This document shows, piece by piece, positions 9,914-64,000 of a stretch of 64,000 bases of DNA. The notes under the pieces are model-generated. The model saw only the letters and a list, made by a program, of their open reading frames with translations, was not told the origin of the DNA and searched no databases. The stretch lies in IMG/VR virus record IMGVR_UViG_3300029305_003918. The stretch is one strand, 5' to 3'. A program made the translations under genes and the position numbers. Numbering within the stretch: the stretch's first letter is position 1; every line of letters begins with the position of its first letter. Source of the DNA: a virus.

Positions 9914-10984
9914 TTGATTATTATAATCAAGCTAGATTATACGATTGAATCTCCTCAAGAGCGAAATGAATTGGTGAAATAGATTTTAACAGAGACTCCC
10001 GACCCAAGCGAGCAATATCTGGAAATCCTTGCTGATTATTTGGTTCTTTGTATGGAGAAACAAGAGAAGAAGGAGCGAAAGATTCTCACCGACAACCGTA
10101 TGGCGACTGTCAATAAACGAGAAACATCTTTCGAGGGTCTTGTTGGCCAGTTGGAGAATGGCGAAGATGGTATATATAATTTAGTAACGAACGATAAGAA
10201 TGTAATATTTTAGCCGAAAGTAACAATTACGAAAAAAGATTTAGAAGAAATTGAGCCATTACGTCAGTTGCGCGACAGCATAGCATATTGGGAAAAGCTG
10301 TCTAAAACTGCGACTGGGCGAGCAGCCTATATTATCAAATCAACTATTATCGAATTGCGGAAGGATCAATATCTTATTAAAAACGCCTACCGCCAACCAA
10401 TTGTTGCGCGAAATATTACAAGAAATATCGGACACTATATTAAACTCCCATGGGATGAATGGGTAGATGAAAATGGAGAAATCCAGTATGAAGGTGTGTC
10501 CTTTATCAATCCCGTTGTTATTAGCACTATTTTATGCAATTATTCTAAACTAAAAGAAGGATGCTATGGCAGGTTCGAGGGTGATACCTGGTATATGATG
10601 GAAGACTTTGATAGATTAGTAGATAATTCACTTGCCGGCTATCCTTTATACCGTCGTATTGTAGAATATAAAATTGACGGGCAATCTAATGTTGATATCA
10701 AGGAAATGATTGAAAAGGAATTCGGCTTCACTCATTCGCTCGAATATATTTCTTCGTTATGGCGTAATAAAATTCCAAAGCTCATTGCCTCTTATTATAC
10801 AGATGAATGGCTGACCTGGTATTATACTGAAAAAGAATATGGGAAGTGGAAGAAATGTACTAGGTGTGGGCAAATTAAGTTAGCCCATTCAAGATTTTTT
10901 TCCATAAACAAAGGTTCAAGAGATGGATGGTATTCTTTGTGTAAGTGTTGCCGGAATGCCAAGAACAAGAAGGCAAAGGAGTAA
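9914..10984 (+). CDS. Hypothetical protein (~355 aa) with a C-terminal zinc ribbon; contains 2 in-frame TAG codons; the start codon is uncertain
   Basis: The frame of track ORF 10268-10984 continues upstream through TAGs at ~9980 and ~10211 with no TAA or TGA. It begins right after the SD GAAGGAGG with a TTG/ATT/ATA candidate start. The first in-frame ATG is at 10052. The protein ends in CTRCGQ...CKCCRN. Confidence 0.4.
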
Positions 10985-10989
10985 TGTGA

Positions 10990-12162
10990 ATGGCAGACTT
11001 AAATAAAACTTATTATTGTAAGGTCTGCGGTCGAACGATGGATACTGATCAATTTTACACATCTAATCGGTTGGATAGATACCCCGACGATGGTAAATTA
11101 CCTGAATGTAAGAAATGCATCACTCGACATGTAGACAATTGGAATCCGAAAACTTATTTATGGATTTTGGAAGAGATCAATGTTCCTTATATTGAAGAGG
11201 AATGGAATACTCTACTTGAACGTTATGGCAAGGACCGCACCAAGGTTACTGGTATGACCATCTTGGGTCGTTACCTTTCCAAAATGAAATTGAATCAATA
11301 CAAAAATTATTCATGGGAAGATACTGAAAAGATTAAGGCTGAAATGGATGCGCGGAAGCGAGACGTTATGGCTCGACAAGGCTATACTGGAGAAGAGATT
11401 GAGGAAGCTCTCGCCGCAAACAGGACACCTGAAAGACCCGCTGAACTAGAAGCAACACGAGAGGAGCCTGCTCCGATTGATGCCTTTGAGCCAGTGGGAT
11501 TCGAAGATGATCTAACTGAAGAAGATAAAACTTACTTGGCGATTAAGTGGGGCAAGACCTACAAACCGTATGAATGGGTTCAGTTAGAGAAGTATTATCA
11601 AGAGATGATGCAATCGTTCGATATTCAGACTCCATCTCATGAAGACTATTTAAAGCTTATTTGTAAAACTTCAATCAAGGCTCATCAACTGATTGACTTG
11701 GGCGACATCGAAGGTTTCCAAAAGATGTCTAAGGTTTATGACGCTTTGATGAAATCCGCTAAATTTACTGCGGTTCAGAATAAGGCTGAGGCTGGCGAGT
11801 TTGTTAACTCAATTTCTGAACTGGTTTTATTATGTGAAAAAGAAGAGGGATTTATTCCTCGTTTCTATACCGACAAGCCGAAGGATAGAGTTGATGAAAC
11901 TCTTGCGGACTTGCGTGGCTACACTAACACTCTTGTTACTGAAGAGATGAATCTTGGTAATCTTATCGAATCTGCGGTTAAGGCATTGCAGCGCGAAGCC
12001 GAACGCGAAGAAGATGAAGATATTGATGATGAAGATGAAATTATGGATATGGATTCTCTTGATGAATTGAAAGATGATGACTTTGCCGAACACTATGAAT
12101 TCTTAGAACAAGAGGCTGAAGATGATGCCTTAACGATGATGGAAATGTTAAAGGAGGAATAA
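10990..12162 (+). CDS. Hypothetical protein (390 aa) with an N-terminal zinc ribbon and an acidic C-terminus; possibly the terminase small subunit by position
   Basis: Intact track ORF with SD AAGGAG. Immediately upstream of the large terminase gene. Has a CxxC...CxxC motif and a D/E-rich tail. Confidence 0.3.
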   Translation: MADLNKTYYCKVCGRTMDTDQFYTSNRLDRYPDDGKLPECKKCITRHVDNWNPKTYLWILEEINVPYIEEEWNTLLERYGKDRTKVTGMTILGRYLSKMKLNQYKNYSWEDTEKIKAEMDARKRDVMARQGYTGEEIEEALAANRTPERPAELEATREEPAPIDAFEPVGFEDDLTEEDKTYLAIKWGKTYKPYEWVQLEKYYQEMMQSFDIQTPSHEDYLKLICKTSIKAHQLIDLGDIEGFQKMSKVYDALMKSAKFTAVQNKAEAGEFVNSISELVLLCEKEEGFIPRFYTDKPKDRVDETLADLRGYTNTLVTEEMNLGNLIESAVKALQREAEREEDEDIDDEDEIMDMDSLDELKDDDFAEHYEFLEQEAEDDALTMMEMLKEE

Positions 12163-12163
12163 T

Positions 12164-13906
12164 ATGGCTTTACAAGACTTATTAAACCTCTCAAACGACC
12201 GATAGAAAATTGGTTTATCTGAAGAGCGTGTGCGGGCCGTTATTCCGGTCGCACGTTAGTATATTGCCTATTGGCGCGAATACCCTGACATGTTTGTTGA
12301 CTTCATGGCAGGTAAATGGCAGCCAAATCCTCCAAAGGAAACGCTTAACTTATTCTTTTATCAACGAGTATTTTTGCGGGCCGCTATGCGTTACAAATAC
12401 GTGTATGCGGTCTTTCCGCGTGCTTATTCAAAATCATTCCTTGCGGTTTTGATTTTGATGACTCGTGCAGTACTATATGCGGGATCTAAACTATTTGTTA
12501 CTTCTGGTGGTAAGGAACAGGCTTCTGGTATTTTGAAAGAAAAAGTCCAGGAAATCTGTACTCTTGTGCCGGGCTTCGCAAAAGAGATTGACTGGGGCCG
12601 TGGTAAAACATTAGAAGGTAAAGACTATTGTAAATATATTTTCCGAAGTGGTTCTTATATTGATAACTTGGGTGCTAGCGAAAAATCAAGAGGTAAGCGC
12701 CGACATGGCGGACTTGTTGAGGAGTGCGTTGGCGTAGATGGAACTATCCTAAACGAAGTTATTATTCCAGTTATGAACGTTTCTCGCAGATTGCCGGATG
12801 GTACTTCTGATGATCAAGAGGTTCTGAATAAAAGTCAGATCTTTGTTACAACTGCGGGCTGGAAGAATACTTTCGCTTATGATAAGTTGATTCAAATGCT
12901 TGTTGGACAGATTACGCAACCGGAGAAGTTTTGTATTATGGGTGGTACTTGGAGAATTCCTGTTCTTATGAAATTACTTGATAAGAACTTTGTGCGCGAC
13001 TTGAAATTGGACGGTACATTTAATGAGTCCTCTTTTGACCGTGAGTATGAATCTAAATGGTCTGGCACTATTGAAGATGCGTTCTTCCGTGCTGAGCAAT
13101 TTGATCGTAATAGAATCTTAAAGCAGCCTGAATACGAGTATTCTGGTAGATCTATGAAGTCTGCGTATTATGTACTTGCGGTTGACGTAGGTCGTAAAGG
13201 TTGCGATACTGTAGTTTGTGTATTTAAGGTAACACCACAGACTGCGGGTGTATCATTAAAGACTTTGGTAAATATTTATACTTTACATGATGAACACTTT
13301 GAAGATCAAGCTATTGCATTGAAGAAGTTGTTCTATAAATACAAGGCTCGTCGTATTGTTATCGACGGTAATGGTCTTGGTATTGGTCTTGTTGACTATA
13401 TGGTAAAAACTCAAATTGATCCGGATACTAATGAAACTTATCCTGACTTTGGTGTTGAGAACGATGAAGAAAATTATTATAAGAAGTTCCGCACTGATGC
13501 CTGTGAGTTTGATGCTATGTATATTATTAAGGCCAATGCACCTATTAACACTGAAGCTCACGCGAATGCGCAAACTCAGTTATCTTCTGGTAAAGTAAAG
13601 ATGCTGATTGATGAACGTGTGGCAAAAGTTAAGTTAATGGGAACTAAGCGTGGACAAGATATGAAACCTGAAGAGAGGGCGGAATATCTTAAACCGTTTA
13701 CTCTAACTTCCATATTGAAGGAAGAGATGATGAATCTTCGTGAAGAAAACGAAGGTGTTAACATCATTTTAAAGCAAGCTAATAAGTCAATTAAGAAAGA
13801 TAAGTTCTCTGCTTTTGAATATGGCTTGTACTATATTAAACAAGAGGAAGATAGTAAAAAGCGTAAACGCAAAGGCAGAATTTCTGAAATGATGTTTATG
13901 AACTAA
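12164..13906 (+). CDS. terL: Terminase large subunit (~580 aa; 2 in-frame TAG codons)
   Basis: ATG at 12164 after SD AAGGAGG. Reads through TAGs at ~12203 and ~12257 into track ORF 12290-13906. The C-terminal RNaseH-like nuclease motifs (AVDVGRKG...IVIDGNGLGIG) are typical of the large terminase. Confidence 0.65.
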
Positions 13907-13918: not shown

Positions 13919-14275
13919 ATGAGAGCGTCTCGTGGAGAAATCAAGATTCAAGAGATTCTGGAAGAGGCGGGATTGCGGTTCACAATGGAACAATCATTTG
14001 AGGGTTTAAATAGCCCGAATGGTCGTCCTTTGCGGTTTGACTTTTGTGTATTTGACGATGATGGAAATATTGATTTCCTTATTGAATATCAAGGTAAACA
14101 ACATTATGAACCATCAAGTAAATTTGGTGGAACAAAAGGTTTTTATCAACAGTAGTTCAATGATAACAAGAAACGTCGTTTTTGTGCATTAAAGGAAATC
14201 CCATTAGTTGAAATTCCGTATACAGAAGAGAATCTTATTACTTATGATTATATTATGACAAAGGCTGGCTATTAA
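13919..14275 (+). CDS. Free-standing Vsr/DUF559-like (PD-(D/E)xK) endonuclease, a likely homing endonuclease (118 aa; 1 TAG)
   Basis: The segment RFDFCVFDDDGNIDFLIEYQGKQHY...IPLVEIPY continues through the TAG at ~14153 to a TAA at 14273. Inserted between the terminase and portal genes. Paralogous to the C-terminal domain of the 8283-9059 product. Confidence 0.5.
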
Positions 14276-14288: not shown

Positions 14289-15896
14289 TTGCGAAGAAGA
14301 TAGGATGAAATCCGTGCTAAAGGTTTTGCATTAACTCCGCCTCGCAGGGATATTGATTATATTGATCCGGAAAATAATGAGCCACTTGATTTTAGCAAGA
14401 TTCGTATTGGTCTACAAACCCTTGATGATGCTATTTTAGATTTGGGTGCTTTAAAAAAGACCAATCGTACATATGGTGACAAGAATGCGGTTTTACGCGC
14501 ATTAGCTACTAAGGATTATAACACCTTGCGTGAAATATCAAATTACTTCTATGAGGTAAGTGGTATCTATGAACGTCTATGCAAATATTTTGCATTTTTG
14601 TATAGATATGACTGGTATGTTGTTCCATATGTTGAAGATGATTCTATCAAGGAAGAAAAAATTCTAAGTGAGTTTTCTAAGGTTCTTAATTATTTAGATA
14701 ACTCAAATATTAAATACATGTGCGGCAATGTAGCCCTTTAGGTTATTAAGAATGGTTGCTACTATGGTTATATTGTAGATACCACTAATGGCATGACCTT
14801 GCAGGAATTGCCAGTTGCTTATTGTCGCAGTCGTTATATGGTTGGCGATTCGCCGGCCGTTGAGTTCAATATGAAGTTCTTTGATGATAAGTTCCCAACT
14901 ATTGAACAGCGACTTAGAATTTTAAAGATGTTCCCAGAAGAGTTTGCCAAAGGTTATGTTTTATACAAGAAAGGCAAACTTAAAGATGAATCTGGCTCTC
15001 AAGCTGGGTGGTATTTACTTGATCCCGCTTGTGCGATTAAATTAAATCTGAATGGTAGTGACTATCCAATTCTTGCAAATGCGATTCCCGCGATTTTGGA
15101 TTTGGATGCAGCGCAGGATTTAGACCGTCGCAAGACCATGCAGAAATTGTTGAAAATTGTAATTCAGAAACTTCCTCTTGATAAGAATGGTGATTTGATT
15201 TTTGACGTTGATGAAGCAAAAGATATTCACAACAATGCGGTTCAGATGTTGAAGCGTGCGGTTGGTGTAGACGTTATGACTACATTTGCGGATACCTCTG
15301 TTGCGGACTTGGCGGATAAAAATACTACAACCTCTACCGATGATTTGGAAAAGGTTGAAAGAACTTTGTATAACCAATTTGGTGTTTCTTAGAACTTGTT
15401 TAATACAGATGGTAATATTGCTCTTGAAAAGTCTATCTTAAATGATGAGGCTTCAATGCGCAATTTGATTCTACAGTTTGGTAATATGTTAAACAAGATC
15501 GTTCGTCACAAGTTCCCCGGTAAGAAGAAGTATAACTTTAGAGTGTATATGTTGGAGACGACAGTCTACAACTACATCGAGCTTGCGAAGATGTATAAGG
15601 AACAAGTGCAGATTGGTTACTCCAAGATGCTACCGCAGATTGCGATGGGTCATTCTCAAAGTGCTATTATTGCTACTGCACACTTTGAAAATGAAGTATT
15701 GCACTTGTATGAAATTATGATCCCACCGATTATGAGTTCTACAATGAATGGTGAGGACATCTTAGGATAGAAGGCTTAGAAGAAAGCTCAAAGTTCTTAG
15801 ACAGGTTCTTCCTCTGAAAATAAAGGCGGTCGTCCTGAAAAACCAGATGGACAGAAATCTGAAAAAACTATTTAGAATAAGGAATCTGCTAATTAA
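14289..15896 (+). CDS. Portal protein candidate (~535 aa; about 7 in-frame TAGs; TTG start)
   Basis: Track ORFs 14442-14741, 14793-15392 and 15396-15770 share one frame and are joined only by TAG codons. The frame continues to a TAA at 15894. The assignment is by size and position after the terminase. The start TTG lies 8 nt after AAGGAGG, and its coordinate may be off by 1. Confidence 0.5.
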
Positions 15897-15911: not shown

Positions 15912-17321
15912 ATGCATATTAGTGTTCCAGTTGAAGCTACTGTTGAATTGCTTAACTTCACTCCTGTTAACCCTTTAATCTCTAAGTGTCAGATTAAAGT
16001 GTGTTATGTGGGAGAAGATCCCAATAGAAACCACAGTGTAATTACCAAGGCTGTTGCCACTGATATGGCGAAGTCATTGCCAGGTTGCCCTATTGTTGGT
16101 TTTTTTAATGAGGCTACTGGTGATTTTGAAGAGCATAATCGTATGATTGATGTTTCAAATGGTAAGTTTGATATTATTGATACCACTCGACCATATGGTT
16201 TCGTTGATTTGGGAGCAAAAGTCTGGTTCCAGAAATTCTTAGATGATGGTGTTGAGCATGAGTACCTTATGACTGAAGGTTATATTTGGGATGATGTGTA
16301 CCCAGAGGCTAAGCGTATCATTGAGAAGGGGAATAATCAGTCCATGGAACTTCATAATAAACTTACAAAAGGGAAGTGGACAACAGACGATAATGGAATG
16401 CCTAAGTTTTTCATTATCAATGAAGCAATTATCCAAAAATTGTGTATTCTTGGAGAGAACGTCGAACCTTGCTTTGAGGGAGCGGGTATCGCTTCGCAGT
16501 TCTCTATTGATGGAGAGTTCAAGGAACAATTGTTCTCCATGATTAAAGAATTACAAACAGCTTTACAAGAAGGAGGAAAAACTCAAATGAATGAGGATAT
16601 TAAGACCCCTATGACTGAGGAGGAGCAGAATATCGAGAATTCAGCCGAAGAGACTGAGTTCAAGAAGAAGCCCGACGAGGAAGAGGAAAAGAAAGAAGAG
16701 AAAAAGCCTCCATTCCCTCCAAAGAAGGACGAAGATGATTCAGAGGATAAGAAGGAATCTGAAGAGTCTGAGGAGGATGAAGACGAAGACGAGGACAAGA
16801 AGAAGAAGGGTAAGAAGAAGTTCGCCAAGTCCGATGATGAAGAAGAGGACGAGGATGACAAGAAGTGCCCGAAGTGCGGAAAACCTGCGTCTGAATGCTC
16901 TTGCAATAAAGAAAAGAAGTATAATCTTGAAGAGATTCCAGAATATGTTGAGCTCGCCAAGAATTATGCTGCTCTCGAAGTAAAGTGTGCTTCTCTTGAG
17001 AAGGAAATCGCTCCACTTCGTGAGTTTAAGGCCACTGCTGATCGTAAGGAAAAGCAGGCTATGATTGATGGCTTCTATATGTTGACTGAAACTGACAAGG
17101 CTGATGTTGTTGCTAATATTGACAACTATTCCTTGGATGATATTGAAGCCAAGCTTTCTATTATTTGTGTTCGTAACAAGGTTAATTTCAGCCTTGATAA
17201 CGATAAACAAGAACCCGAAAAACAGGATCCAATGGTTTATTCCCTTGGTGACAACGACGATGGCAATGACAATGCACCAGCCTGGATTAAGGCCGTGCGT
17301 GAGACTGCCAAAACTATGTAA
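15912..17321 (+). CDS. Head protein (469 aa) with an N-terminal globular domain, a long acidic/lysine low-complexity linker and a coiled-coil C-terminus; a possible prohead protease or scaffold fusion
   Basis: Intact ORF with no TAG. The linker reads EEEKKEEKKPPFPP...EDEDEDEDKKKKGKKK and is followed by a coiled coil. Confidence 0.3.
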   Translation: MHISVPVEATVELLNFTPVNPLISKCQIKVCYVGEDPNRNHSVITKAVATDMAKSLPGCPIVGFFNEATGDFEEHNRMIDVSNGKFDIIDTTRPYGFVDLGAKVWFQKFLDDGVEHEYLMTEGYIWDDVYPEAKRIIEKGNNQSMELHNKLTKGKWTTDDNGMPKFFIINEAIIQKLCILGENVEPCFEGAGIASQFSIDGEFKEQLFSMIKELQTALQEGGKTQMNEDIKTPMTEEEQNIENSAEETEFKKKPDEEEEKKEEKKPPFPPKKDEDDSEDKKESEESEEDEDEDEDKKKKGKKKFAKSDDEEEDEDDKKCPKCGKPASECSCNKEKKYNLEEIPEYVELAKNYAALEVKCASLEKEIAPLREFKATADRKEKQAMIDGFYMLTETDKADVVANIDNYSLDDIEAKLSIICVRNKVNFSLDNDKQEPEKQDPMVYSLGDNDDGNDNAPAWIKAVRETAKTM

Positions 17322-17347
17322 TTAGATATCAAAGGAGGAGCTAAAAA

Positions 17348-18052
17348 ATGGCTTTTAAAAGATTATCTCCTGAAGCTAAGTATGTAACTTATGGCTTCGG
17401 TCAGGTTGAGCCTAACCATCTCTCCGCACAGCGCACTGGTGAAATTTATGCTCAGTTGCCTGCTCATAAGGATATCAAGATCCTAGAGAATGGTCAGTTT
17501 GCTAAGTACAACTATGTAAATGGTACTGTTGATTTTGAAGGTAAGGGCGAATGGATGCTTATCTTCAATGAAGTTAAGGTCTATGCTCCATGGGAGACCG
17601 ACCAGGACTTCGCTATGATCGCTCGTGACTACAATGGTTATGTTTATAGCCCAGTTGGCGCTAAGGGCGATGTTGACAACCAGATGAAGACTATCGGTGC
17701 TGAGACCGATGTTTATGCTGCTGGTTATACTGATGAGGGTGCTGCTGATGACTTTGGTCGTATGCATTTGAAGATTGGTCAGTCCTATGAGATTGAGAAT
17801 CTAAATCAGCCTCAGCTACTTTCTGATGTTCAGGGTATGATGACTCCTCGTCTATTCAAGACTCATGAGGGCGACATCTTTACTACTAACTGTGTTGCAG
17901 AGGAAACTCTTGCTCTTGGTGACATTCTTGCTCCTAATGCAAAGGGCTACTTGGCTAAGACCGAGGCTGAGTCCGGCATGTTGTGGCAGGTTGTTAAGGT
18001 ATACAATTTAGGCGATATGCAGAAGGCCGTTAAGGTCATGCGTATTCAGTAA
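17348..18052 (+). CDS. Head protein (234 aa); a scaffold or decoration candidate
   Basis: Intact ORF with no TAG. Lies between the portal or protease region and the putative capsid gene. Confidence 0.3.
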   Translation: MAFKRLSPEAKYVTYGFGQVEPNHLSAQRTGEIYAQLPAHKDIKILENGQFAKYNYVNGTVDFEGKGEWMLIFNEVKVYAPWETDQDFAMIARDYNGYVYSPVGAKGDVDNQMKTIGAETDVYAAGYTDEGAADDFGRMHLKIGQSYEIENLNQPQLLSDVQGMMTPRLFKTHEGDIFTTNCVAEETLALGDILAPNAKGYLAKTEAESGMLWQVVKVYNLGDMQKAVKVMRIQ

Positions 18053-18075
18053 TTCGGAAAGGAGAGAAACTAGCT

Positions 18076-19186: not shown

Positions 19187-19777
19187 ATGAGTGATAAGAA
19201 AGTTTCTGTAAAGAATAGAAGTAGTTCTATGGTTGTATACAGTGTGCCGGAAATGGGTGTTCGTCGCGAGTTTGCTCCCAACGAAGTAAAAACCATTTCT
19301 ATGGACGAACTAAATGCTCTGTCTTATTTGCCCGGCGGCATGAATCTAATTCGCAAGCATCTATTTGTTCAGGATGAGTCCGCTCTACAAGAAATGTCTG
19401 TAAAAGTTGAGCCTGAATATTATTTGGATGAAAAGGGTGTTATTGATCTACTTGAAAAAGGTTCTATTGATGCATTCTTAGATTGTTTGGATTTTGCTCC
19501 CGAAGGCGTGCTTGATTTAATTAAGAAGCACGCTGTGGCACTTCCAGTAAATGATAATCGTAAGCGTGAAGCTATCAAAGAAAAGATGGGCTTCGACGTA
19601 ACCGCAGCGATTAAGCATTTGGAAGAAGCTCGCAAGGCAGAGGAAGAAGAGTCTGGCGTGAAAGCCGAAGCAATTACTCCTGTGCGTCGTGTGAAGACTG
19701 AGGAAGCACAGCCTGCTACTGGCCGTCGTACCGCAGTCCCGCAGTATAAGGTAGTCACTCCAAAGCAGGAGGCGTAA
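19187..19777 (+). CDS. Hypothetical head-tail joining or head-completion protein (196 aa)
   Basis: Intact ORF with SD AAAAGGAG. Confidence 0.35.
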   Translation: MSDKKVSVKNRSSSMVVYSVPEMGVRREFAPNEVKTISMDELNALSYLPGGMNLIRKHLFVQDESALQEMSVKVEPEYYLDEKGVIDLLEKGSIDAFLDCLDFAPEGVLDLIKKHAVALPVNDNRKREAIKEKMGFDVTAAIKHLEEARKAEEEESGVKAEAITPVRRVKTEEAQPATGRRTAVPQYKVVTPKQEA

Positions 19778-19780
19778 TCA

Positions 19781-23363: not shown

Positions 23364-23383
23364 TTTAATACTATGACAATATA

Positions 23384-23421: not shown

Positions 23422-23445
23422 ATTTGCGAAAAAGGAGAATGATAT

Positions 23446-51273: not shown

Positions 51274-51287
51274 GGAGGAGAAAAGAA

Positions 51288-52643: not shown

Positions 52644-52662
52644 AAATAGGAGGGACTAACTT

Positions 52663-54309: not shown

Positions 54310-54328
54310 TTTATAAATTTTACTACAC

Positions 54329-54372
54329 AGGGCAAAGTGACACTGCACTTTGCCCTTTTTATTTTTTGAGAG
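54329..54372 (+). terminator. Intrinsic terminator after the 52663-54309 fibre-like gene
   Basis: GGGCAAAGTG...CACTTTGCCC followed by TTTTTATTTTTT. Confidence 0.6.
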
Positions 54373-54390
54373 GAAGGAGAAAATCGTTTT

Positions 54391-57300: not shown

Positions 57301-60300
57301 AATTTTAATCTTGATAAGGGTGCTACCAATACATTTGGCTTTGACTTTGGATGGGATTTAGACCCAACAAAACGTGTATATAATCCATATTCCGTAGAAA
57401 AGATTCATACCTCTTGGCAGAAGGTCGATGAATTAAGCGATGATGAAGAGCTAAGAGAAGAAACTACGCCTCGTAAGAGTACTTTTGGCGAGTTAGCCGA
57501 ATGTTGGGAATTCTGCCAGAACCAGTCTGGTCTTGGTAAATTCCAAAGCGATGATGTGAATGGTTTCTACGAATTAATTCCTAACACTGAAGAAAATGCT
57601 GGTCGTCTACAAATTTATAATCATTTCGAGCCTCGTTATACTTATGAAGACTGGGATATCGGAGATGTTTATAAAGATAATGAGATTGGTGTAGCAAATC
57701 AGTATATTAAAGATCATACCAAGAATTTTAAGGTAATGTGGGATTGGGTACATAGCACAGATACCACAAAGTTCACTGGTAGTGCATTAGATGCGACCAA
57801 ATATTATTTAACCTTATCTTCTCAATATGAGCATGGTGTTACTTATTATACTCTTGGCGCAGATCAGACTTATACAAAAGCAAATATTACTCCTACCATT
57901 CAAGCTGCTTATCAGACTTTGAATGAAACAGATAATGCAAATAGCGTAATTGTTAATAATCTTAAGACATTTACTGATTTCTTAGTAGCTGTAAATGGCA
58001 CTCTGACTGAAGAAGATAAAGCTAATGGTATGACTCATGATTATGAGAAATACGTTGGACCTTATACTTTTGTAAAACATGAAGATGGATTATTCTATTA
58101 CGAAATGCCTGAAGGTAGTGACCAAGAGGCAGTTGCAAATTGTGGATTAGAGATTAGTGAAAACTATGCTCGTGATGAATTTACTATTGAAGTAAATTTG
58201 GTCTGGGAAGGTTTTAGCGCAGATCTTTATGAGAAATTTGATACTGACTCTATCCGCTATAGAAAAGCTAAGTTCAGAAATGAATTTACTGAGCACTTTG
58301 ATCTTGATTATTGTGCAATCTATTTCATTATGACTGAATTGCTTTTGTGCTATGACTCTCGTCAAAAGAATATGATGATTGCAACATGGGGTCCAACTGC
58401 TAAGTCTAATGCTAACGGTGATTTTATTTGGTTCCCAATTTTCTACGATATTGATACTCAGTTAGGTGTAAACAATTCCGGACATGTTTCTTGGGACTAC
58501 AACACTGATGCAACATTAGTATCTGAAGATCCTGATATTTATGACGACACAGGTCATGCATTTAAAGATGCTTCCATCTTCTCTGGTGCTGGTTCAGTTT
58601 TATGGATCAACTTCGCTGGATTAATGATGGACAAAATTTTAGCAATTTATCGCGGCTTACGCAATGAAGGTGCGATTGAACTCGATACACTTAATGAACA
58701 TTATAATACCAATGGTTCTGACAAGTGGAGCGAAATTATGAAGAACATTGACGCTGATTATAAATATATCTCTCCTGCAACTACAGGATATACCGATCAA
58801 GAAGGAACTATTTCTCAAACTGAAGGTTATTTCTACTGCTTGCAAGGTGATAGAACTTTAAATCGTCAAGCATTCTTCCGCAATCGTTTGAATTATCTTG
58901 ACTCTCAGTGGTTAGGTGGTTCTTATAATCCTGAATTTATTAAGAAGCAAATTAAATTGCGTTATAATGCAAACGACCTTGCTCGTACTTCTGATGATAC
59001 TAAAGATGAAGAAGGTAACTTAGTAGAAGGTTTGCAGGCAAGTGCATCATTCAATCTACATGGATACTTATCTCAGTATCTATCTGTAGTATATGATGAA
59101 ACTGCTACCACGCCTAAGCCTTATGTTGCCGGTCAAGACGATCCTGTTCTTATTGACCCACCATCTTCTATTAAAAACCGCTTAGACGATGGCGTTCCAT
59201 TGTCTCAACAGTTGGCTTATATTCGCGGTCCAGAATATATCGCGGATCTTGGCAACTTAAGTGACAAGTACCTTAATGAAATTGACTATTCTCAAGCAAT
59301 TCGTTTGCGTACTTTCACACTTGGTTCTTTGATAGATGGCTATCGCAATGATGGTATCACAGATAAATTTATTGATGCTTTGGCTATCACTGCTACAAGT
59401 CCAAAAGGACTTTTGACATATATGGACCTATCTAATTTAACTAAGTTGGCTGGTTCTCTTCAATTAACTGGTGCTGAAAAAATTAATACTTTTATGGCAA
59501 CAGGTACACAATTAAGTTCTGTCGAGTTTACTGAAGGTAACTTGTTAAAGACCTTGTACTTGCCAGAAACAATTACCTCCTTTGTTTTGAAACAACCTCT
59601 TGAATTAAGGGGTATTGTAGAAACAGCTCCAACCATTGATAATACTCCAACTGGTTTATATATTAAGAATTTAACAGATAAATATACCACTACTCCTAAT
59701 GCTAATACAACTTGTAATATTGAGACATTTGTATTAGACAGAAGTAAAATGGGTATTGATTCTTATCGTTTGTTAGATTACTTATATAAAGTAAAAGAAG
59801 CTAAACACAATGGCATTATTACTGATGGAAATACCACACCTATTTTAAAGTGTGACTTTACCGATGTGGAATGGTCTCCATATAAATTAGTTGAAATTGG
59901 TACATCTTTCGATCGTGCAACAAAGTATTATGAATTAAAAAATCAAACCACTTACGAAGTATACCATGATCCTAACGGAGCTACTGGTTATTATGAGGAA
60001 GGCTGGATCAATAAACTTAATGATGGTGTAATTTATACTTTTGATGATGCTTTTGATACAAACGTCATTAAAAATCTTGATATTGTAACAGCTTTCTTAG
60101 ATATGTATGAGGATAAAACCGCAACTGTGGAAACTGATACTTATCGTTACCGCTCTTTCTTAACTTATAATGAACTTTTACCAAATACTAAAATTCTTCC
60201 AGGCTTAACTGGTCGTATGCACGTGAACAATCAGGAAGAGGGAGATGCATTAGACGAATATACTTTGTGGAAACGTTATAATGCACTTTATCCAGATCTT

Positions 60301-61704
60301 GAAATTACTGGTGACAAAGTAAATCCTGCTTATTCTGTTCATTTTGTTGAATATAATGCAGAAGGTGTTCAAAAGACACTTGGATGGTTAAAGTATCCTT
60401 ATGGATATGCTGAGTCCCCAGTAGTTTACGAAGGAGAAGAACCTTCTAGATTGCATTATGACTTTGTTGGTTGGGCAATTGAAGATGGCACATTTGATTT
60501 TAGAGCGGCACATTCCGTAATTACCGATAATGATAAAGTTACACTTTATGCAACTAATGAATTAAATACTCACGTCTTATCTGCTATTGATGGTGGACGC
60601 GTAACTGTTGTTGCAGTATATAAAGTGCATGGTTATACTATGAGCTTTTATAATTATGATGGCTCTTTGTTTGAAGAAATTGAAACTCCTGCTGGTAAGC
60701 CAATTATTACTCCTACTAGAATTCCTCAAAGAGATAGCACCTCTTTGGCTTTGACTTCTTGTTATAAATTTATTGGTTGGCATACTTCTCTTACTTCTTC
60801 TACTGACACCACCGATTTAAATCGTATTTTAGCAGGTAGCGACATGAACTTCTATGCGGTTTACATGGAAAGTAGTGTTTATGACAATATAATTGATCAG
60901 CAGTATTTAAATATTACTTATAAAACAGACGCCGTTCTTGGCAATTATGCTATTGTTGGTCTTGATCCTACTTATGGCATTGGTGGAAAAGTTTGTTTCC
61001 CAATTACCGTATTTGATGAACAAGGTGTCGAATGGCCGATCTTAGAAATTGCTGCAGGTACTTCTGCAACAGGCTCTGTATCTAATGGTATGTGTCAAAA
61101 TACTGATCTGTACGCTGTGTTCTTCTTAGGTTGTCAAGAAAATGCAGAGAATTTAAGTAAGATTTATAAATTTAATGATTTTGCATTTGATAAAGCAACC
61201 AGCTTAGTTCATGTTGATTTCCCTGACTCACTAACTACTATTGGAACTTTCTGCTTCAGAAATTGTACTAATTTAGTGGTTGACAATACTAACAATGTTA
61301 GCTATTTTGGCAATAGTGCATTTGCAAATGCATGCCGAAATAAGGATTGTGTTGTTCTTACTGTTCCTTATAATGAGTACAGTCTTGGAGACACTAACAA
61401 TGATGGTATTGAAGATTTTGGTGCTGCTTATGGTAATAAGACATTCCAAAACTGTGGTTGGTCTATTATTAATTTTGGCACCGCTCAAAGACCAATTAAT
61501 GCAAACGCTTTAACTTGGTTGTCAACAAATGCCATGTTTGGTGCAAGCTCTCAAGAATATTTATCTTTAAGTAGTTTTGTTGTTACTTACGATAATAACA
61601 GTACTTCATATGATGAAATTCTTTCCTATGTAGATGATTGGATTACTAACTATGATCTTCATATTACAGCTAATCCAAATCTTGTCCAAATTATGCAAGC
61701 TTAA
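54391..61704 (+). CDS. Giant tail fibre or host-recognition protein (2437 aa) with BspA-type leucine-rich repeats at its C-terminus, TAG-free
   Basis: A single intact 7.3-kb ORF with SD GAGGAAGGAG. The C-terminal ~250 aa show BspA-like LRR (LRR_5) periodicity (...TSLVHVDFPDSLTTIGTFCFRNCTNLVV...VSYFGNSAFANAC...). Confidence 0.5.
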   Translation: MNVSERISTDAFSPYHGTEEMVNAAIKRNGAVYFAYDNRKIFFDVNGNRYQMSGNGILFVYGDTPPEELVLDPETALYPFPRENILEDHYLVGSIIINSDNTFYKIVQMDDVLAYCEKLLIAGGGGGGIGDGDGDEIFDSSILLSIDFPKYHPYGTKLIGKGKVTDARGGQSGTFTLQIYNNVGEYKEGIAPRFTKSFTVDVGDWFDIELNADDVVAGDQNYFLFQVEVDLRYSSPVTRQVTCVDVHYEPTNQWNPIALLKPEEQDVQYYYKVYAGQGSKLPDDWSINVVYTLTDGLSGLSYEVSDVVTSQSGAFKLNDLLSNVDQGGHTLDVHATMMIGTSEVVVGDYHYGIGVFRNITSGEKAVPIIWSPYNKTEEENYTIIKIPYNVYDPTRNDGKAYVEYYINGEEQIGVTVTYSETEWQPWTIATYNVNEMNSFILQCGLTYKEFQVFIVPNYKMDLDATKGAVLYLNALGRSNLETPNKRQQWPNKAETQDDTIGLGEIKFNNFNWANNGWIEDESEGTCLRVSNGASVEIPLAAMSTVKAASRTYEFDFKVRNAVDYSRLIIEKAVQKIDANGNPMFDEDGTPETEQVKTVSSGEGAFLTYFNPSNYRGFMLGTQEAFFSLSKTKVVNARYTDDERVKISIVVDAAGKFTQIYNTETGAPTSNTIPLIYLYVNGVLTNIMKFTSNDDFSASVDKIVINSDYCDVDIFNIRVYTNALNYSAITQNWIGDAPTLDERHNRYNRNGSIVESNKIDYAKVRQADIIPTMVITTYKNSDVGATADNKLPYAKGNKKAVGIRFWNPAKPSQGFHCQNVELDVQGTSSQGYPRRNYKLKTQEKVSGITSWDKPFRFETWDGDENKKDYWYQDHNDESKMISKIDIGNGIAAKTFCLKADYMESSSTHNTQFANLIQTIANQTGSDKSADLRHPLKKYFGQTKDYRTTVFGFPILVFWEDIDGNIEYVGKYNFNLDKGATNTFGFDFGWDLDPTKRVYNPYSVEKIHTSWQKVDELSDDEELREETTPRKSTFGELAECWEFCQNQSGLGKFQSDDVNGFYELIPNTEENAGRLQIYNHFEPRYTYEDWDIGDVYKDNEIGVANQYIKDHTKNFKVMWDWVHSTDTTKFTGSALDATKYYLTLSSQYEHGVTYYTLGADQTYTKANITPTIQAAYQTLNETDNANSVIVNNLKTFTDFLVAVNGTLTEEDKANGMTHDYEKYVGPYTFVKHEDGLFYYEMPEGSDQEAVANCGLEISENYARDEFTIEVNLVWEGFSADLYEKFDTDSIRYRKAKFRNEFTEHFDLDYCAIYFIMTELLLCYDSRQKNMMIATWGPTAKSNANGDFIWFPIFYDIDTQLGVNNSGHVSWDYNTDATLVSEDPDIYDDTGHAFKDASIFSGAGSVLWINFAGLMMDKILAIYRGLRNEGAIELDTLNEHYNTNGSDKWSEIMKNIDADYKYISPATTGYTDQEGTISQTEGYFYCLQGDRTLNRQAFFRNRLNYLDSQWLGGSYNPEFIKKQIKLRYNANDLARTSDDTKDEEGNLVEGLQASASFNLHGYLSQYLSVVYDETATTPKPYVAGQDDPVLIDPPSSIKNRLDDGVPLSQQLAYIRGPEYIADLGNLSDKYLNEIDYSQAIRLRTFTLGSLIDGYRNDGITDKFIDALAITATSPKGLLTYMDLSNLTKLAGSLQLTGAEKINTFMATGTQLSSVEFTEGNLLKTLYLPETITSFVLKQPLELRGIVETAPTIDNTPTGLYIKNLTDKYTTTPNANTTCNIETFVLDRSKMGIDSYRLLDYLYKVKEAKHNGIITDGNTTPILKCDFTDVEWSPYKLVEIGTSFDRATKYYELKNQTTYEVYHDPNGATGYYEEGWINKLNDGVIYTFDDAFDTNVIKNLDIVTAFLDMYEDKTATVETDTYRYRSFLTYNELLPNTKILPGLTGRMHVNNQEEGDALDEYTLWKRYNALYPDLEITGDKVNPAYSVHFVEYNAEGVQKTLGWLKYPYGYAESPVVYEGEEPSRLHYDFVGWAIEDGTFDFRAAHSVITDNDKVTLYATNELNTHVLSAIDGGRVTVVAVYKVHGYTMSFYNYDGSLFEEIETPAGKPIITPTRIPQRDSTSLALTSCYKFIGWHTSLTSSTDTTDLNRILAGSDMNFYAVYMESSVYDNIIDQQYLNITYKTDAVLGNYAIVGLDPTYGIGGKVCFPITVFDEQGVEWPILEIAAGTSATGSVSNGMCQNTDLYAVFFLGCQENAENLSKIYKFNDFAFDKATSLVHVDFPDSLTTIGTFCFRNCTNLVVDNTNNVSYFGNSAFANACRNKDCVVLTVPYNEYSLGDTNNDGIEDFGAAYGNKTFQNCGWSIINFGTAQRPINANALTWLSTNAMFGASSQEYLSLSSFVVTYDNNSTSYDEILSYVDDWITNYDLHITANPNLVQIMQA

Positions 61705-61722: not shown

Positions 61723-61944
61723 ATGAAAAAAACAGTTTTATATCGTTATTTAGGTACGAATGGGGTGCTCGACACCCCCATTCACCTTGAAGACGTTTAC
61801 CATGTCCGTTTATTGAGATTAATTGCTGATTCAGGTAAAACTCTCACCAATGGAGTACTTACAAAAAAAGTTGTCACTATTCCAGAGGATGAGTTGGATC
61901 AGTGGACTGAAATTGGATGGACAGATTCTAGTAAAAAGTCTTGA
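61723..61944 (+). CDS. Hypothetical small protein (73 aa)
   Basis: Intact ORF with SD AAAAGGAG. A terminator follows it. Confidence 0.4.
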   Translation: MKKTVLYRYLGTNGVLDTPIHLEDVYHVRLLRLIADSGKTLTNGVLTKKVVTIPEDELDQWTEIGWTDSSKKS

Positions 61945-61968
61945 TAATTTTTAATATAATCTAGAATG

Positions 61969-62004
61969 TGGGAGAACTTTCAAATAAAGTTCTCCCATTA
62001 TTTT
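61969..62004 (+). terminator. Intrinsic terminator after the 61723-61944 gene
   Basis: GGGAGAACTTT-CAAATA-AAGTTCTCCC followed by ATTATTTT. Confidence 0.5.
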
Positions 62005-62019
62005 AGGAGGATAACAACT

Positions 62020-62487
62020 ATGGCCGCAATTATGTATTTTGATAGACTTGACAAATTAAATCCTGCAAGAGGTTTTGCTTCAGGAACTGATTTGGTTGAT
62101 ATTGAATTTCATGTATCTAAAAATAAGAATCCGAGAATTCTTGATCAAGTCTTTTTAATTATGACAGATGATAAGGGGATGCGGGATGTAGTTGAGTTGG
62201 AATTTAAGCAGCCAGCCGCAGATACAGCTTACAACATTTACAGAGTGTCTTTGCGGCAACCGGTCCGTTTAATTTCTGGAAAAACGACTCTTCAGCTTAT
62301 GACTTTGGCTCCAGGGACATCAGATTATCGGTTGTCTTCTGAGTTTACTATTGATTTAAAAGCGACTAATTTTGAAATTACTCGTTAGATTTATTTAACT
62401 CAGGCTCTTGGTGCTCAAGTTCAAAGCTATTACACTGAAATTGTTGAATTATTCCAACAATTGGTTAAAATTGAGAAAGGGGAATAA
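62020..62487 (+). CDS. Hypothetical protein (~155 aa; 1 TAG)
   Basis: SD TTAGGAGG then ATG at 62020. The track ORF 61966-62388 frame reads through the TAG at 62386 to a TAA at 62485. Confidence 0.4.
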
Positions 62488-62492
62488 TCTTA

Positions 62493-64000
62493 ATGAAAGT
62501 AGTAATTACTAAGAAATTCAAGGAAGAATATAAGAAACTCTTTGATGATTTACAGATTGATGTAGCTCAATATGGTGTTTCTCTTCAAGAGGGTGAATTA
62601 GCTACTTATTTTAACGCCTTACAGGTTGCAAGAGAGCATGGTAAGAACTTAAGTAATAAGTTTTATCGTCTCCCATTAGAGGAGCCACCTTTTGAAGTTG
62701 ACATGGATGCCCGTACAATTACCGTACCCAACGAATTCAAAAATGTTGGTGTTGGTGTTAAGGGCGATACCAATGCTGAAATTATTTTCTTTAAAGTCCC
62801 TCGTTGGTTTGATGCAATGGACTTAAATGAAACTCTATGCGTGGTACAGTGGTACAATGCAAATAACAAGAAGGTAAAGCAGGGCAACTCTCCTGTTATT
62901 TTAACTGACGTTTATTCAGAGGAAGTTGTAATTAACGCTGAGACTGGTGAGACCGAGTCTCATGACTTTGTTCTTCTTGGTTGGGTTATTACTAATGAGA
63001 TGACTGAGCAGAGCGGCTCTATCGAATTTGCTCTTCGTTTCTACGCTCTTGACTATGGTACCGATCCTGCAACAATCACTTATAGTGTTGCTACTCAGAA
63101 GAGCTCTTGCGCAATTAAGGGTACTCTTGATCTTGATGTGGTTGGTGCCGAATTAGATACTGACTTGGAGAACTTGATTCGTACTCGTCCAGTATACTCT
63201 GGTGTAATTAACTCTCTTGATGGTGCTGCACCTACTATTGTTCTTGATTTGGATAATACCGTTGAATATGAACTTAGTACTGATGTTGAGGGTTATGAAG
63301 ATTATGCCGAATTAAAGGATGAAGATGGTAATCTATTGTACCCAGATGGTATTCTTCGTTTAGCTGTTAAAGGCGAATCTCCAAACAAGGATCAGGGCGG
63401 TGAAGTTGTATATCGCTGGTATCGTGGTAAAGAACAACTTTATGACGTTCTTGAGAATGTTGTAGAAGAAGATGAGGAATATGTAGTTACCACTGCTGGT
63501 ACTTATTTCGCACAAATTGGTAATAAGACTGCAGCTTCCGGTACTCGTTGGATTAACACTAAGACCGCAACAATTCCTGCTGCCGCAGAATTGAAGCATG
63601 GTGATATTAGTAAGTTCCCAATTAAAATGTATTCCTTGGGTGAGACTCCATCCGCAGAAGAAGGACAAACTACTTATACCAATAAGTTAATCTTTGATGT
63701 CACTGGCTACAATAAGCCTGCAGATGTGAAGTATACTTGGACTCTTGACGATGTAGAAGTAACTGATGGCGTAGACGGAAATACTTATATTCCTCCAAAG
63801 GATACAGAAGGTATTGTTTCTTGCCATGCAATTAATTATCGCAACAATACAAAGTCTGAGCCATTGGCAGTTGGCACCCCTTGCGTTTTGCGCGCTTGGC
63901 CAGATAAGCCAACTGAAGTTAAGTTGACTTATAATGATTCTAAGATTACTGCAGAGCCTATTTTCCCATTAGATAGTAAATCTGCAATCCATCCAGAAGA
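62493..64000 (+). CDS. Large structural or Ig-like protein, partial (at least 502 aa; continues past the right edge of the window)
   Basis: ATG at 62493 after SD GAAAGGGG. The open frame runs to the end of the window with no stop, and it is absent from the track because it is truncated. Confidence 0.5.
   Translation, partial: MKVVITKKFKEEYKKLFDDLQIDVAQYGVSLQEGELATYFNALQVAREHGKNLSNKFYRLPLEEPPFEVDMDARTITVPNEFKNVGVGVKGDTNAEIIFFKVPRWFDAMDLNETLCVVQWYNANNKKVKQGNSPVILTDVYSEEVVINAETGETESHDFVLLGWVITNEMTEQSGSIEFALRFYALDYGTDPATITYSVATQKSSCAIKGTLDLDVVGAELDTDLENLIRTRPVYSGVINSLDGAAPTIVLDLDNTVEYELSTDVEGYEDYAELKDEDGNLLYPDGILRLAVKGESPNKDQGGEVVYRWYRGKEQLYDVLENVVEEDEEYVVTTAGTYFAQIGNKTAASGTRWINTKTATIPAAAELKHGDISKFPIKMYSLGETPSAEEGQTTYTNKLIFDVTGYNKPADVKYTWTLDDVEVTDGVDGNTYIPPKDTEGIVSCHAINYRNNTKSEPLAVGTPCVLRAWPDKPTEVKLTYNDSKITAEPIFPLDSKSAIHPE

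What the first reader, a model, noticed from the sequence alone, without database searches (positions are those of the whole stretch)
9914..64000. Amber (TAG) stop codon reassigned to a sense codon throughout the late or structural module
More than 100 in-frame TAG codons interrupt what are otherwise single long reading frames.

- The tape measure gene (25953-37328) consists of 15 track ORFs, all in frame 0, joined solely by TAG. It has about 40 TAGs and no TAA or TGA across 11.4 kb.
- The next gene (37449-43442) has more than 20 TAGs across 6 kb.
- The portal, terminase, the 21659-22405 gene and others show the same pattern.
- Every gene ends in TAA or TGA, never TAG.
- Translations across the TAGs remain protein-like.

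This is the signature of TAG reassignment. Glutamine (genetic code 15) is the usual target in recoded phages, but the amino acid cannot be determined from the sequence alone. Standard-code gene callers would fragment this genome badly, as the supplied track does.
Basis: seen in the sequence. Interest (0 to 1): 0.9.

Follow-up and report, generated by a model that had tools for sequence, protein, structure and literature searches.

The report
Phage late genes read TAG as glutamine
This is the structural-gene region of a large gut phage related to SPbeta that uses the stop codon TAG as a glutamine codon; the feature is real, but it is a new member of a phage group already reported to do this.

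Summary
If only TAA and TGA count as stops, the + strand from about 9.9 kb to 64 kb resolves into 29 tightly packed genes (97.6% coding). Fourteen of them carry 105 in-frame TAGs and no in-frame TAA or TGA. The tape-measure gene (25953-37328, 3,791 codons) has 42 TAGs.

TAG means glutamine here.
- In relatives that use the standard code, the conserved TAG columns carry CAA or CAG.
- A likelihood test picks Gln over every other residue, and its control classified 200 of 200 test sets correctly.
- Between strains 93-97% identical in DNA, 14 of 18 TAG replacements are TAG<->CAG/CAA.

The phage is SPbeta-like. Its closest named relative is Phage Phass-1, a published code-15 phage with three amber-suppressor tRNAs (major capsid protein 52% identical). 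This is therefore a new member of a known kind.

- The gene after the tape measure has 18 TAGs, not more than 20.
- "Never ends in TAG" follows automatically from the gene-calling rule.
- Recoding is patchy: 15 of 29 genes have no TAG, including a 12-kb tail-fibre block (P about 3e-9).

No suppressor tRNA lies in the window or in the roughly 26 kb of flanking DNA I could read. Relatives carry one.

The parts
9821..9896 (.). Pair of back-to-back promoter-like sites: TTGAAA-17-TATAAT on the - strand (9849-9821) and TTGACT-17-TATAAT on the + strand (9868-9896). Both have a TG-extended -10. They lie at the boundary between the TAG-free left arm and the recoded right arm.
   Evidence: each matches 11 of 12 consensus positions; sequence.
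1..9822 (-). Left arm of small minus-strand genes with no in-frame TAG, including a homing-endonuclease-like gene at 8283-9101. GC is about 48-50% up to about 8 kb. Gln is encoded almost only by CAG. Stops are TGA or TAA, never TAG.
9914..10984 (+). Sigma-factor-like gene (phrog_5767), the first gene of the rightward operon, with 2 in-frame TAGs (9980, 10211). The start lies upstream of ATG 10052. TTG 9914 sits behind GAAGGAGG, and the exact start codon is uncertain.
   Evidence: the PHROG score rises from 155.7 to 172.6 bits, and the match extends 21 more profile positions, when the upstream extension is included.
10990..12162 (+). YonG_N-like protein (PF27269, phrog_3314), 0 TAG.
12164..13906 (+). 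Terminase large subunit, 2 TAGs. It is 43.5% identical to the Phass-1 TerL region.
13919..14275 (+). Small homing-endonuclease-like gene between terminase and portal, 1 TAG.
   Evidence: phrog_9084, E 4e-27.
14289..15896 (+). Portal protein, 7 TAGs. It starts at TTG 14289 behind AAGGAGG, with a TAG at codon 5. The public gene call from ATG 14718 is truncated.
   Evidence: phrog_2739, E 3.5e-79, matches from residue 64.
15912..19122 (+). Head genes: a YonD_N-like gene (15912-17321), gene 17348-18052, and the YonB-like major capsid gene (18076-19122). All have 0 TAG. The last two use CAG almost exclusively for Gln.
19187..21643 (+). Four small head-tail genes: 19187-19777 (0 TAG), 19781-20419 (1), 20416-20706 (1) and 20699-21643 (0).
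21659..22405 (+). YomV-like gene (PF27211, phrog_4051) with 11 TAGs in 248 codons, which is 69% of its Gln-family codons. This was the main test case for the amino acid encoded by TAG.
22431..25863 (+). YomU-like tail tube (22431-23363, 0 TAG), YomW-like gene (23446-23979, 0), gene 23993-25270 (8 TAGs) and YomO-like gene (25339-25863, 0).
25953..37328 (+). Tape-measure protein of 3,791 aa with 42 TAGs and no TAA or TGA. The PhageMin_Tail domain lies at residues 190-397 and spans three TAGs.
37449..49965 (+). Distal tail and baseplate-type genes: 37449-43442 (1,997 aa, 18 TAGs), 43857-46865 (4), 46865-49564 (6) and 49576-49965 (1).
50062..61704 (+). TAG-free tail-fibre or host-recognition block of four genes, including a 2,437-aa protein with a BspA-type LRR_5 repeat. 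It has 123 CAA/CAG codons and no TAG.
   Evidence: (P about 3e-9).
61723..64000 (+). Three further genes: 61723-61944 (0 TAG), 62020-62487 (1) and 62493 onward (0 TAG; runs off the window, 589 aa in L089).

Best explanation
The window is the late (virion) arm, plus part of a TAG-free left arm (probably early genes), of a roughly 168-174 kb SPbeta-like siphophage from gut or animal metagenomes. Its host is probably a Clostridia bacterium.

In the late arm TAG is a glutamine codon (genetic code 15). It makes up about 15% of Gln-family codons, and only TAA and TGA terminate.

**Shown:** the TAGs lie inside single conserved proteins and occupy glutamine positions.

**Inferred:**
- Decoding is done by a phage-encoded amber-suppressor tRNA (anticodon CUA) located elsewhere in the genome, as in Phass-1 and in four relatives of this clade.
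- That tRNA is charged with Gln by host enzymes and must outcompete release factor 1 almost completely. Reading 42 TAGs in one protein needs about 98% or better read-through per codon to give 43% full-length product.
- The left arm avoids TAG altogether, and the first rightward gene is a sigma-like regulator that itself contains TAGs behind a consensus host-type promoter. Suppression therefore probably also acts as a timing gate for late gene expression.
For: **Frames**
- 105 in-frame TAG and no in-frame TAA or TGA in 29 genes at 97.6% coding density. The chance of a TAA/TGA-free frame the length of the tape-measure gene is about 1e-136.
- Family profiles run across TAGs.

**Amino acid, from evidence that is not circular**
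- In 11 homologues of the YomV-like gene that have no TAG, the codons at the query's TAG columns 21, 67, 130, 169 and 209 are CAA or CAG in 11/11, 11/11, 11/11, 10/11 and 11/11.
- Over all genes, window TAG columns align to Gln in 30.5% of cells, against a background of 3.5% (8.75-fold). This is the same profile as the window's own CAA/CAG columns, which align to Gln in 39.7%.
- Column-weighted likelihood favours Gln by 17 log units over Glu and 21 over Lys or Ser. The control classified 200 of 200 same-size sets of ordinary columns correctly.
- In strains 93-97% identical in DNA, 14 of 18 TAG replacements are TAG<->CAG/CAA, and 6 of those need two base changes.

**Contiguity**
- Standard-code relatives have a single ORF of at least 6.8-7.1 kb at the tape-measure position. 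It aligns to residues 1-555, with Q,Q,Q,Q,E at the first five TAGs.

**Relatives and the suppressor tRNA**
- Phass-1 is the closest GenBank record. It has three CUA-anticodon tRNAs (PMC10607447).
- CUA-anticodon tRNAs also occur on the contigs of four recoded relatives that share the YomV-like gene: the contigs of L011, L015, L020 and L069.

**TAG is avoided as a stop**
- None of 31 genes in L092 and none of 32 in L105 ends in TAG in the TAG-free left arm, and this result does not follow from the gene-calling rule.
Against: - No tRNA of any kind lies in the window or in the roughly 26 kb of flanking DNA I could read. About 80 kb of the genome was out of reach, so the decoding agent for this phage is inferred, not seen.
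- No release-factor or aminoacyl-tRNA synthetase family appears among the precomputed Pfam hits for the flanking genes.
- Ser is mildly over-represented at TAG columns (1.8-fold). This comes from a few variable columns and is far behind Gln in likelihood.
- There is no protein-level evidence for this phage.
Confidence: 0.9

Rival explanations
1. TAG is a sense codon but encodes another amino acid: Ser, Leu (code 16), Tyr, Trp, Glu, Lys or pyrrolysine.
For: - The suppressor tRNA family found in relatives has a long variable arm, a feature typical of Ser, Leu and Tyr tRNAs. Its isotype could not be assigned by similarity.
- Ser is 1.8-fold enriched at TAG columns.
- ARAGORN labels CUA-anticodon tRNAs as Pyl by default.
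Against: - Gln wins the likelihood test by at least 17 log units.
- The mean Gln fraction at TAG columns is 0.31, against 0.37 at true Gln columns and 0.05 or less at Ser, Glu, Lys, Tyr, Leu and Trp columns.
- Strain-level swaps go to CAG or CAA in 14 of 18 cases. None goes to TCG, TTG, TGG, TAC or TAT.
Confidence: 0.04
2. The host, not the phage, supplies TAG decoding, either through a host suppressor tRNA or because the host lineage itself reads TAG as a sense codon. The phage genome then carries no suppressor.
For: - No tRNA was found in the roughly 90 kb examined.
- Babkin et al. report recoded relatives in which no Sup-CTA gene was detected (PMC10607447).
Against: - From my own knowledge, no bacterial lineage with TAG=Gln is known.
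- Recoded relatives of this clade carry CUA-anticodon tRNAs.
- The left arm avoids TAG both as a sense codon and as a stop. That fits a change of decoding during infection better than a permanently recoded host.
Confidence: 0.05
3. The TAGs are real stops. The region would then be a decayed prophage, a set of separate small genes, or genes expressed by rare read-through, or the TAGs would be assembly errors.
For: A standard-code gene caller does report many short ORFs here. The JGI calls on L090 end at TAG.
Against: - Only one of the three stop codons ever interrupts the frames.
- Homologues are contiguous.
- Independent assemblies are identical.
- TAG positions are conserved as TAG or as Gln codons across strains.
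- At 90% read-through per codon, only 1.2% of the tape-measure protein would be full length.
Confidence: 0.01

Closest known systems
Phage Phass-1 and the proposed Phassvirus group (Babkin et al. 2023, PMC10607447; GenBank OQ749652; NCBI taxon 'Caudoviricetes code 15 clade')
   Same: - Large gut siphophage with TAG inside TerL, portal, tape-measure and tail genes, read as Gln.
- Very long tape-measure protein (3,149 aa there, 3,791 aa here).
- The head and tail genes have homologues in Phass-1 (major capsid protein 52%, TerL 43.5%, portal 41% identical).
- The probable host is in Clostridia.
   Different: - Only 30-52% protein identity, and no DNA-level match.
- Larger genome (about 168-174 kb against 136 kb).
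- The tail-fibre block has no Phass-1 homologue.
- Phass-1's 36 tRNAs, including 3 Sup-CTA, have been seen. None has yet been seen for this phage.
Other phages with TAG recoded to Gln: crAss-like, Lak, Garnet, Amethyst and related clades (Borges et al., bioRxiv 10.1101/2021.08.26.457843; Peters et al. 2022, PMC9523058)
   Same: - Recoding is concentrated in structural and late genes.
- Part of the genome is compatible with the standard code.
- Suppressor tRNAs are the proposed agent, and recoding has been proposed as a timing switch for late genes.
   Different: - The phage lineage is unrelated (SPbeta-like virion genes).
- For crAss-like phages Gln at TAG has been shown by metaproteomics. Here it is inferred from alignments.
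Bacillus phage SPbeta and SPbeta-like phages (standard code), and Enterococcus phages EF1, EF5, H1 and VRE9
   Same: - Virion gene families YonG, YonD, YonB, YomV, YomU, YomW and YomO, in the same order on the related contigs.
- Major capsid protein 26-37% identical.
- Giant tape-measure protein.
   Different: - Babkin et al. found no recoding in Enterococcus phage EF1.
- Eleven more distant relatives in IMG/VR also use the standard code.

Membership tests
Genetic code 15 phage (TAG = Gln) | In-frame TAG, but never TAA or TGA, inside conserved essential genes | tested here: met
   105 TAG and 0 TAA or TGA in 29 genes. Family profiles span TAGs.
Genetic code 15 phage (TAG = Gln) | TAG positions correspond to Gln in homologues that use the standard code | tested here: met
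   using the codons of relatives rather than database translations. The database translations already had Q written at TAG.
Genetic code 15 phage (TAG = Gln) | TAG is not used as a terminator | tested here: met
   - Late genes: 25 TAA and 3 TGA stops, though this follows from the calling rule.
- Left-arm genes, which have no internal TAG: 0 of 31 in L092 and 0 of 32 in L105 end in TAG.
Genetic code 15 phage (TAG = Gln) | Phage-encoded suppressor tRNA with anticodon CUA | tested here: inconclusive
   - None in the window, in 7.7 kb to the right, or in 18 kb to the left. The outer 10 kb of the left side comes from a closely related strain (protein 96% identical).
- About 80 kb of the genome could not be fetched.
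- Present in Phass-1 and on the contigs of four relatives.
Genetic code 15 phage (TAG = Gln) | Gln observed at TAG in the protein | not testable with these tools
   Needs proteomics.
Late-gene recoding architecture (Borges et al.) | Recoded structural genes next to a block compatible with the standard code | tested here: met
   105 TAGs in the right arm, against 1-2 in about 5,700 codons of the left arm. No lysis gene lies in the window.
Phassvirus genus (Babkin et al.) | Genome nucleotide identity in the range reported within the genus (80-86%) | tested here: not met
   No megablast match in the phage collection. Proteins are 30-52% identical. This is the same broad clade but not the genus.
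SPbeta-like virion module | Presence and order of the YonG, YonD, YonB, YomV, YomU, YomW and YomO families | tested here: met
   Precomputed Pfam hits on identical contigs.

The most novel reading that the evidence does not exclude
Recoding in this lineage may be a wired-in two-step gate rather than only a codon-usage quirk.
- A sigma-like regulator behind a consensus host-type promoter carries TAGs. Late transcription would then itself depend on amber suppression.
- The suppressor would be the unusual long-variable-arm CUA tRNA family that I found almost only in this clade (24 hits in IMG/VR).
- The receptor-binding cassette is kept free of TAG, so it stays exchangeable with standard-code phages.

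None of this is excluded by my data. None of it is shown, and the tRNA has not been seen in this phage.
Probability: 0.2. Interest if true: 0.6.

Novelty: new member of a known kind. Interest (0 to 1): 0.35.

Why it matters
**Practical consequences**
- Standard-code annotation breaks these 29 genes into 133 pieces and hides a 3,791-aa tape-measure protein.
- The damage reaches reference resources. The terminase here matches two separate half-length PHROG families of unknown function. The Phass-1 GenBank record is annotated as fragments. The recoding-aware public gene call still truncates the portal and the first gene.
- Database proteins from recoded contigs already carry Q at TAG. Using them to infer the amino acid is circular.

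**Biological consequences**
- The window adds a well-sampled lineage to the SPbeta-like code-15 clade. In that clade, recoded and standard-code relatives sit side by side: among the homologues of the YomV-like gene that I fetched, 77 had in-frame TAGs and 11 had none. That makes it a useful system for studying how recoding arises.
- The phenomenon itself is not new.

Tried and rejected
- **Reading Q at TAG columns from database homologues.** Rejected as circular. The closest hits are themselves recoded and were translated with TAG = Q. I redid the test on codons.
- **DNA search against GenBank phages.** No match.
- **Rfam and ARAGORN on the window.** Nothing found.
- **Walking the genome to find the suppressor tRNA:**
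  - A concatenated two-protein query that included a low-complexity protein returned nothing and cost one search.
  - Two scans of the metagenome contigs and one scan of the viral contigs with flanking proteins found nothing.
  - The last protein search unlocked only a representative 96% identical to the query. It gave 10 kb more of a sister strain, with no tRNA.
- **NrdD of Phass-1 as an anchor.** It reached only near-identical Phassvirus contigs.
- **Assigning the long-arm suppressor tRNA to an isotype by similarity of its 5' half.** Inconclusive.
- **Early-TAG enrichment.** Four genes have a TAG within the first 14 codons. I did not run a formal test; by my rough estimate this is about twice the expected number and not significant.
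- **A 3' context effect.** A follows TAG in 44% of cases, against 30% after CAA or CAG. This is marginal (p = 0.02).


Full report
**1. Observation**

The window has 37.7% GC. Treating TAG as a sense codon lengthens the top open frames from 7,335/1,743/1,650 nt to 11,376/7,335/6,015/3,021/2,733 nt. Freeing TGA or TAA instead does nothing comparable.

I placed 29 + strand genes between 10052 and 64000, using start codons, Shine-Dalgarno sites and the gene calls on identical public contigs. They cover 97.6% of that span. They hold 104 in-frame TAGs and no in-frame TAA or TGA, and they end in TAA (25) or TGA (3). The last gene runs off the window. One more TAG (9980) joins when the first gene is extended upstream, so the total is 105 TAGs in 14 genes.

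Per-gene counts:

| Gene | In-frame TAGs |
|---|---|
| Tape measure, 25953-37328 | 42 |
| 21659-22405 | 11 |
| 23993-25270 | 8 |
| Portal | 7 |
| 46865-49564 | 6 |
| 43857-46865 | 4 |
| Terminase | 2 |
| Sigma-like gene | 2 |
| Five small genes | 1 each |

TAA or TGA occupy 7.9% of codons in the two other frames of these genes. A 3,791-codon frame without either has a probability of about 1e-136.

Contigs from ENA, JGI and Logan assemblies are 99.9-100% identical to the window, so the TAGs are not assembly errors.

**2. The joined frames are single proteins**

- The gene with 11 TAGs matches phrog_4051 over 2-247 of 247 profile positions and Pfam YomV_2nd.
- The portal matches phrog_2739 over 446 profile positions.
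- The tape-measure protein has a full PhageMin_Tail domain at residues 190-397, across three TAGs.
- Eleven more distant relatives have no TAG in the YomV homologue. Their loci gain almost nothing when TAG is freed (median ratio 1.05, against 2.39 for recoded relatives). Four of these relatives have one uninterrupted standard-code ORF of 5.6-7.1 kb (three of them at least 6.8 kb) at the tape-measure position, cut off only by the end of the fetched locus.
- That ORF aligns to residues 1-555 of the window protein at 43.5% identity.

**3. Which amino acid**

A warning first. The 120 database homologues of the YomV-like protein show Q at the TAG columns, but the closest of them are themselves recoded and had been translated with TAG = Q. 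The look-up tool reports that they do not translate to the query under the standard code, and their DNA shows TAG at the same sites. That evidence is circular, so I worked from codons instead.

- **(a) Conserved columns.** In the 11 TAG-free homologues, the conserved columns 21, 67, 130, 169 and 209 hold CAA or CAG in 11/11, 11/11, 11/11, 10/11 and 11/11.
- **(b) All genes.** Across all genes shared with 84 distant loci, 1,548 cells opposite a window TAG are 30.5% Gln, against a 3.5% background (8.75-fold). No other residue exceeds 1.8-fold. The window's own CAA/CAG columns give 39.7% Gln. In the reverse direction, the relatives' TAGs face window Gln in 34.6% of cells.
- **(c) Likelihood.** A column-weighted likelihood over 32 TAG columns ranks Gln first, by 17.4 log units over Glu and about 21 over Lys and Ser. 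The same test classifies 200 of 200 same-size sets of ordinary columns correctly.
- **(d) Strain-level swaps.** Between the window and strains 93-97% identical in DNA, 18 codon positions switch between TAG and something else. Fourteen of these are TAG<->CAG or TAG<->CAA, and six of those need two substitutions. None goes to Ser, Leu, Trp or Tyr codons one step away from TAG.

TAG is therefore glutamine (table 15).

**4. What the element is**

The virion genes carry Pfam families named after SPbeta prophage genes: YonG_N, YonD_N, YonB, YomV_2nd, YomU_Tube, YomW and YomO. Contigs carrying these proteins reach 168-174 kb.

The closest GenBank record is Phage Phass-1 (OQ749652). Its major capsid protein is 52% identical, TerL 43.5% and portal 41%. 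Enterococcus and Staphylococcus SPbeta-like phages follow at 26-37%.

Babkin et al. (PMC10607447) described Phass-1 as follows:
- 136 kb, with TAG in 41 ORFs and TAG read as Gln;
- three tRNA-Sup-CTA genes and no dedicated synthetase;
- a probable Clostridia host;
- membership of a wider monophyletic group in which some genomes are recoded and others are not.

NCBI files Phass-1 under 'Caudoviricetes code 15 clade'.

My survey agrees with that picture. Of the homologues of the YomV-like gene that I fetched from IMG/VR, GTDB and the public assemblies, 77 have in-frame TAGs and 11 have none. Three of the hits are in MAGs labelled Lachnospiraceae or Erysipelotrichia.

The window phage is not a Phassvirus, because there is no DNA-level similarity. 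It belongs to the same broad clade.

**5. How TAG is decoded**

*Shown.* ARAGORN finds no tRNA in any of the following:
- the window;
- 7.7 kb beyond its right end;
- 8 kb beyond its left end on a 99.9% identical contig;
- a further 10 kb on a sister strain.

The tool does detect CUA-anticodon tRNAs. It finds all three in Phass-1, two of them next to nrdD and one in a 32-tRNA array.

*Seen in relatives.* A pattern taken from the longest Phass-1 suppressor is CTCTAAAA, then YTCTGARG inside a variable arm of about 20 nt, then GGTTCGAWTCC. It has only 24 matches in IMG/VR. Those matches include six Phassvirus contigs and the contigs of four recoded relatives of the window phage:

| Contig of | Contig length | YomV identity to the window |
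|---|---|---|
| L011 | 168,960 bp | 61% |
| L015 | 149,432 bp | 55% |
| L020 | 193,102 bp | about 55% |
| L069 | 180,778 bp | about 47% |

On the L069 contig (locus L129) the match sits inside a 10-tRNA array; the other matches with an ARAGORN call also fold as cloverleaf tRNAs with anticodon CUA.

*Inferred.* This phage carries such a tRNA in the roughly 80 kb I could not reach. Suppression must be nearly complete: at 90% read-through per codon only 1.2% of the tape-measure protein would be full length, and at 98% the figure is 43%.

**6. Distribution of TAG**

TAG is 14.8% of Gln-family codons overall, but its use is very uneven.
- It makes up 69% of Gln-family codons in the YomV-like gene.
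- It is absent from the capsid, the tube and gene 17348-18052. These genes also use CAG rather than the CAA that dominates elsewhere, as expected for the most highly expressed proteins.
- It is absent from the four-gene block 50062-61704, which has 123 Gln codons (P about 3e-9). That block has no Phass-1 homologue. Its only GenBank phage relatives are unrelated phages, Faecalibacterium phage FP_Brigit and Bacteroides phages, at 25-35% identity. This is consistent with a swapped-in receptor-binding cassette, but it does not prove one.

Left of a pair of back-to-back consensus promoters at 9821-9896, the genome changes character:
- small minus-strand genes;
- GC of 45-50% against 31-42% in the late arm;
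- Gln encoded almost only by CAG;
- stops mostly TGA;
- one or two in-frame TAGs in about 5,700 codons;
- no TAG stop among 31 genes in L092 or 32 in L105.

TAG is thus avoided as a terminator even where it is not used as a sense codon.

The first rightward gene is sigma-factor-like (phrog_5767) and contains two TAGs. This makes a suppression-dependent late switch plausible, as proposed in general terms by Borges et al.. That step is inference.

**7. Verdict**

The amino acid is now determined by comparative evidence. The phenomenon and the clade are already described, so this is a new member of a known kind and of moderate interest.

Still open:
- the location and identity of the suppressor tRNA in this genome;
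- the reason for the TAG-free block;
- the two compositional domains.

Noticed in passing
window 1-8000, continuing about 18 kb further left in L092 and L105: The genome has two compositional domains. The left arm has GC of 45-50%, uses CAG for Gln (CAA is near zero) and ends genes mostly in TGA. The late arm has GC of 31-42% and prefers CAA and TAA. This could reflect host-like codon usage for early genes and dependence on phage tRNAs for late genes. It remains unexplained.
   Followed up: partly
window 50062-61704: A four-gene tail-fibre block, including a 2,437-aa LRR_5 protein, has 123 CAA/CAG codons and no TAG (P about 3e-9). It has no homologue in Phass-1. Its only GenBank phage relatives are Faecalibacterium and Bacteroides phages at 25-35% identity.
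   Followed up: partly
window 9821-10984: Back-to-back near-consensus promoters (each 11 of 12, with TG-extended -10) are followed on the + strand by a sigma-factor-like gene containing TAGs at 9980 and 10211. The public gene call starts too late, at ATG 10052, which has no ribosome-binding site.
   Followed up: partly
window 14289-15896: The portal gene starts at TTG 14289 behind AAGGAGG, with a TAG at codon 5. The recoding-aware public call from ATG 14718 loses 143 residues that match the portal profile.
   Followed up: yes
window 12164-13906: The terminase matches two separate half-length PHROG families of unknown function (phrog_15503 at the N terminus, phrog_24618 at the C terminus). This suggests, but I did not test, that these reference families were built from TAG-fragmented ORFs of recoded phages.
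   Followed up: no
window 8283-9101 (-) and 13919-14275 (+): Two homing-endonuclease-like genes (phrog_9084 and phrog_559) share an FDF.VFD...IEY.G.QH motif. One of them is inserted between terminase and portal and carries a TAG.
   Followed up: partly
L094 12442-12532; L129 1619-1707; L230, L240 and L244 (relatives, not the window): A family of amber-suppressor tRNAs (anticodon CUA) of 85-93 nt has a variable arm of about 20 nt holding a conserved YTCTGARG. There are only 24 IMG/VR matches, of which at least ten lie in the Phass-1 and SPbeta-like recoded clade. A long variable arm is typical of Ser, Leu and Tyr tRNAs, yet the codon is read as Gln. The isotype origin is unresolved.
   Followed up: partly
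window 25953-37328: The tape-measure protein is 3,791 aa. At about 1.5 Å per residue that implies a tail of about 0.57 µm. It contains a run of 13 Gly and Thr-rich runs near its C terminus. SPbeta-like relatives also have giant tape-measure proteins (3,149 aa in Phass-1).
   Followed up: no
L089 25132-27314 (7 kb right of the window): Two adjacent proteins of about 500 aa are made almost entirely of Tyr, His, Ser, Asn, Thr and Gly repeats (SGHY, TNHY and similar). Used as part of a query, they swamped the word-indexed protein search.
   Followed up: no
window, all 104 TAGs of the gene set: The base after TAG is A in 44% of cases and a purine in 76%. After CAA or CAG the figures are 30% A and 67% purine (chi-square p = 0.02). 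From my own knowledge, a 3' purine favours amber suppression in E. coli. The effect here is marginal.
   Followed up: partly
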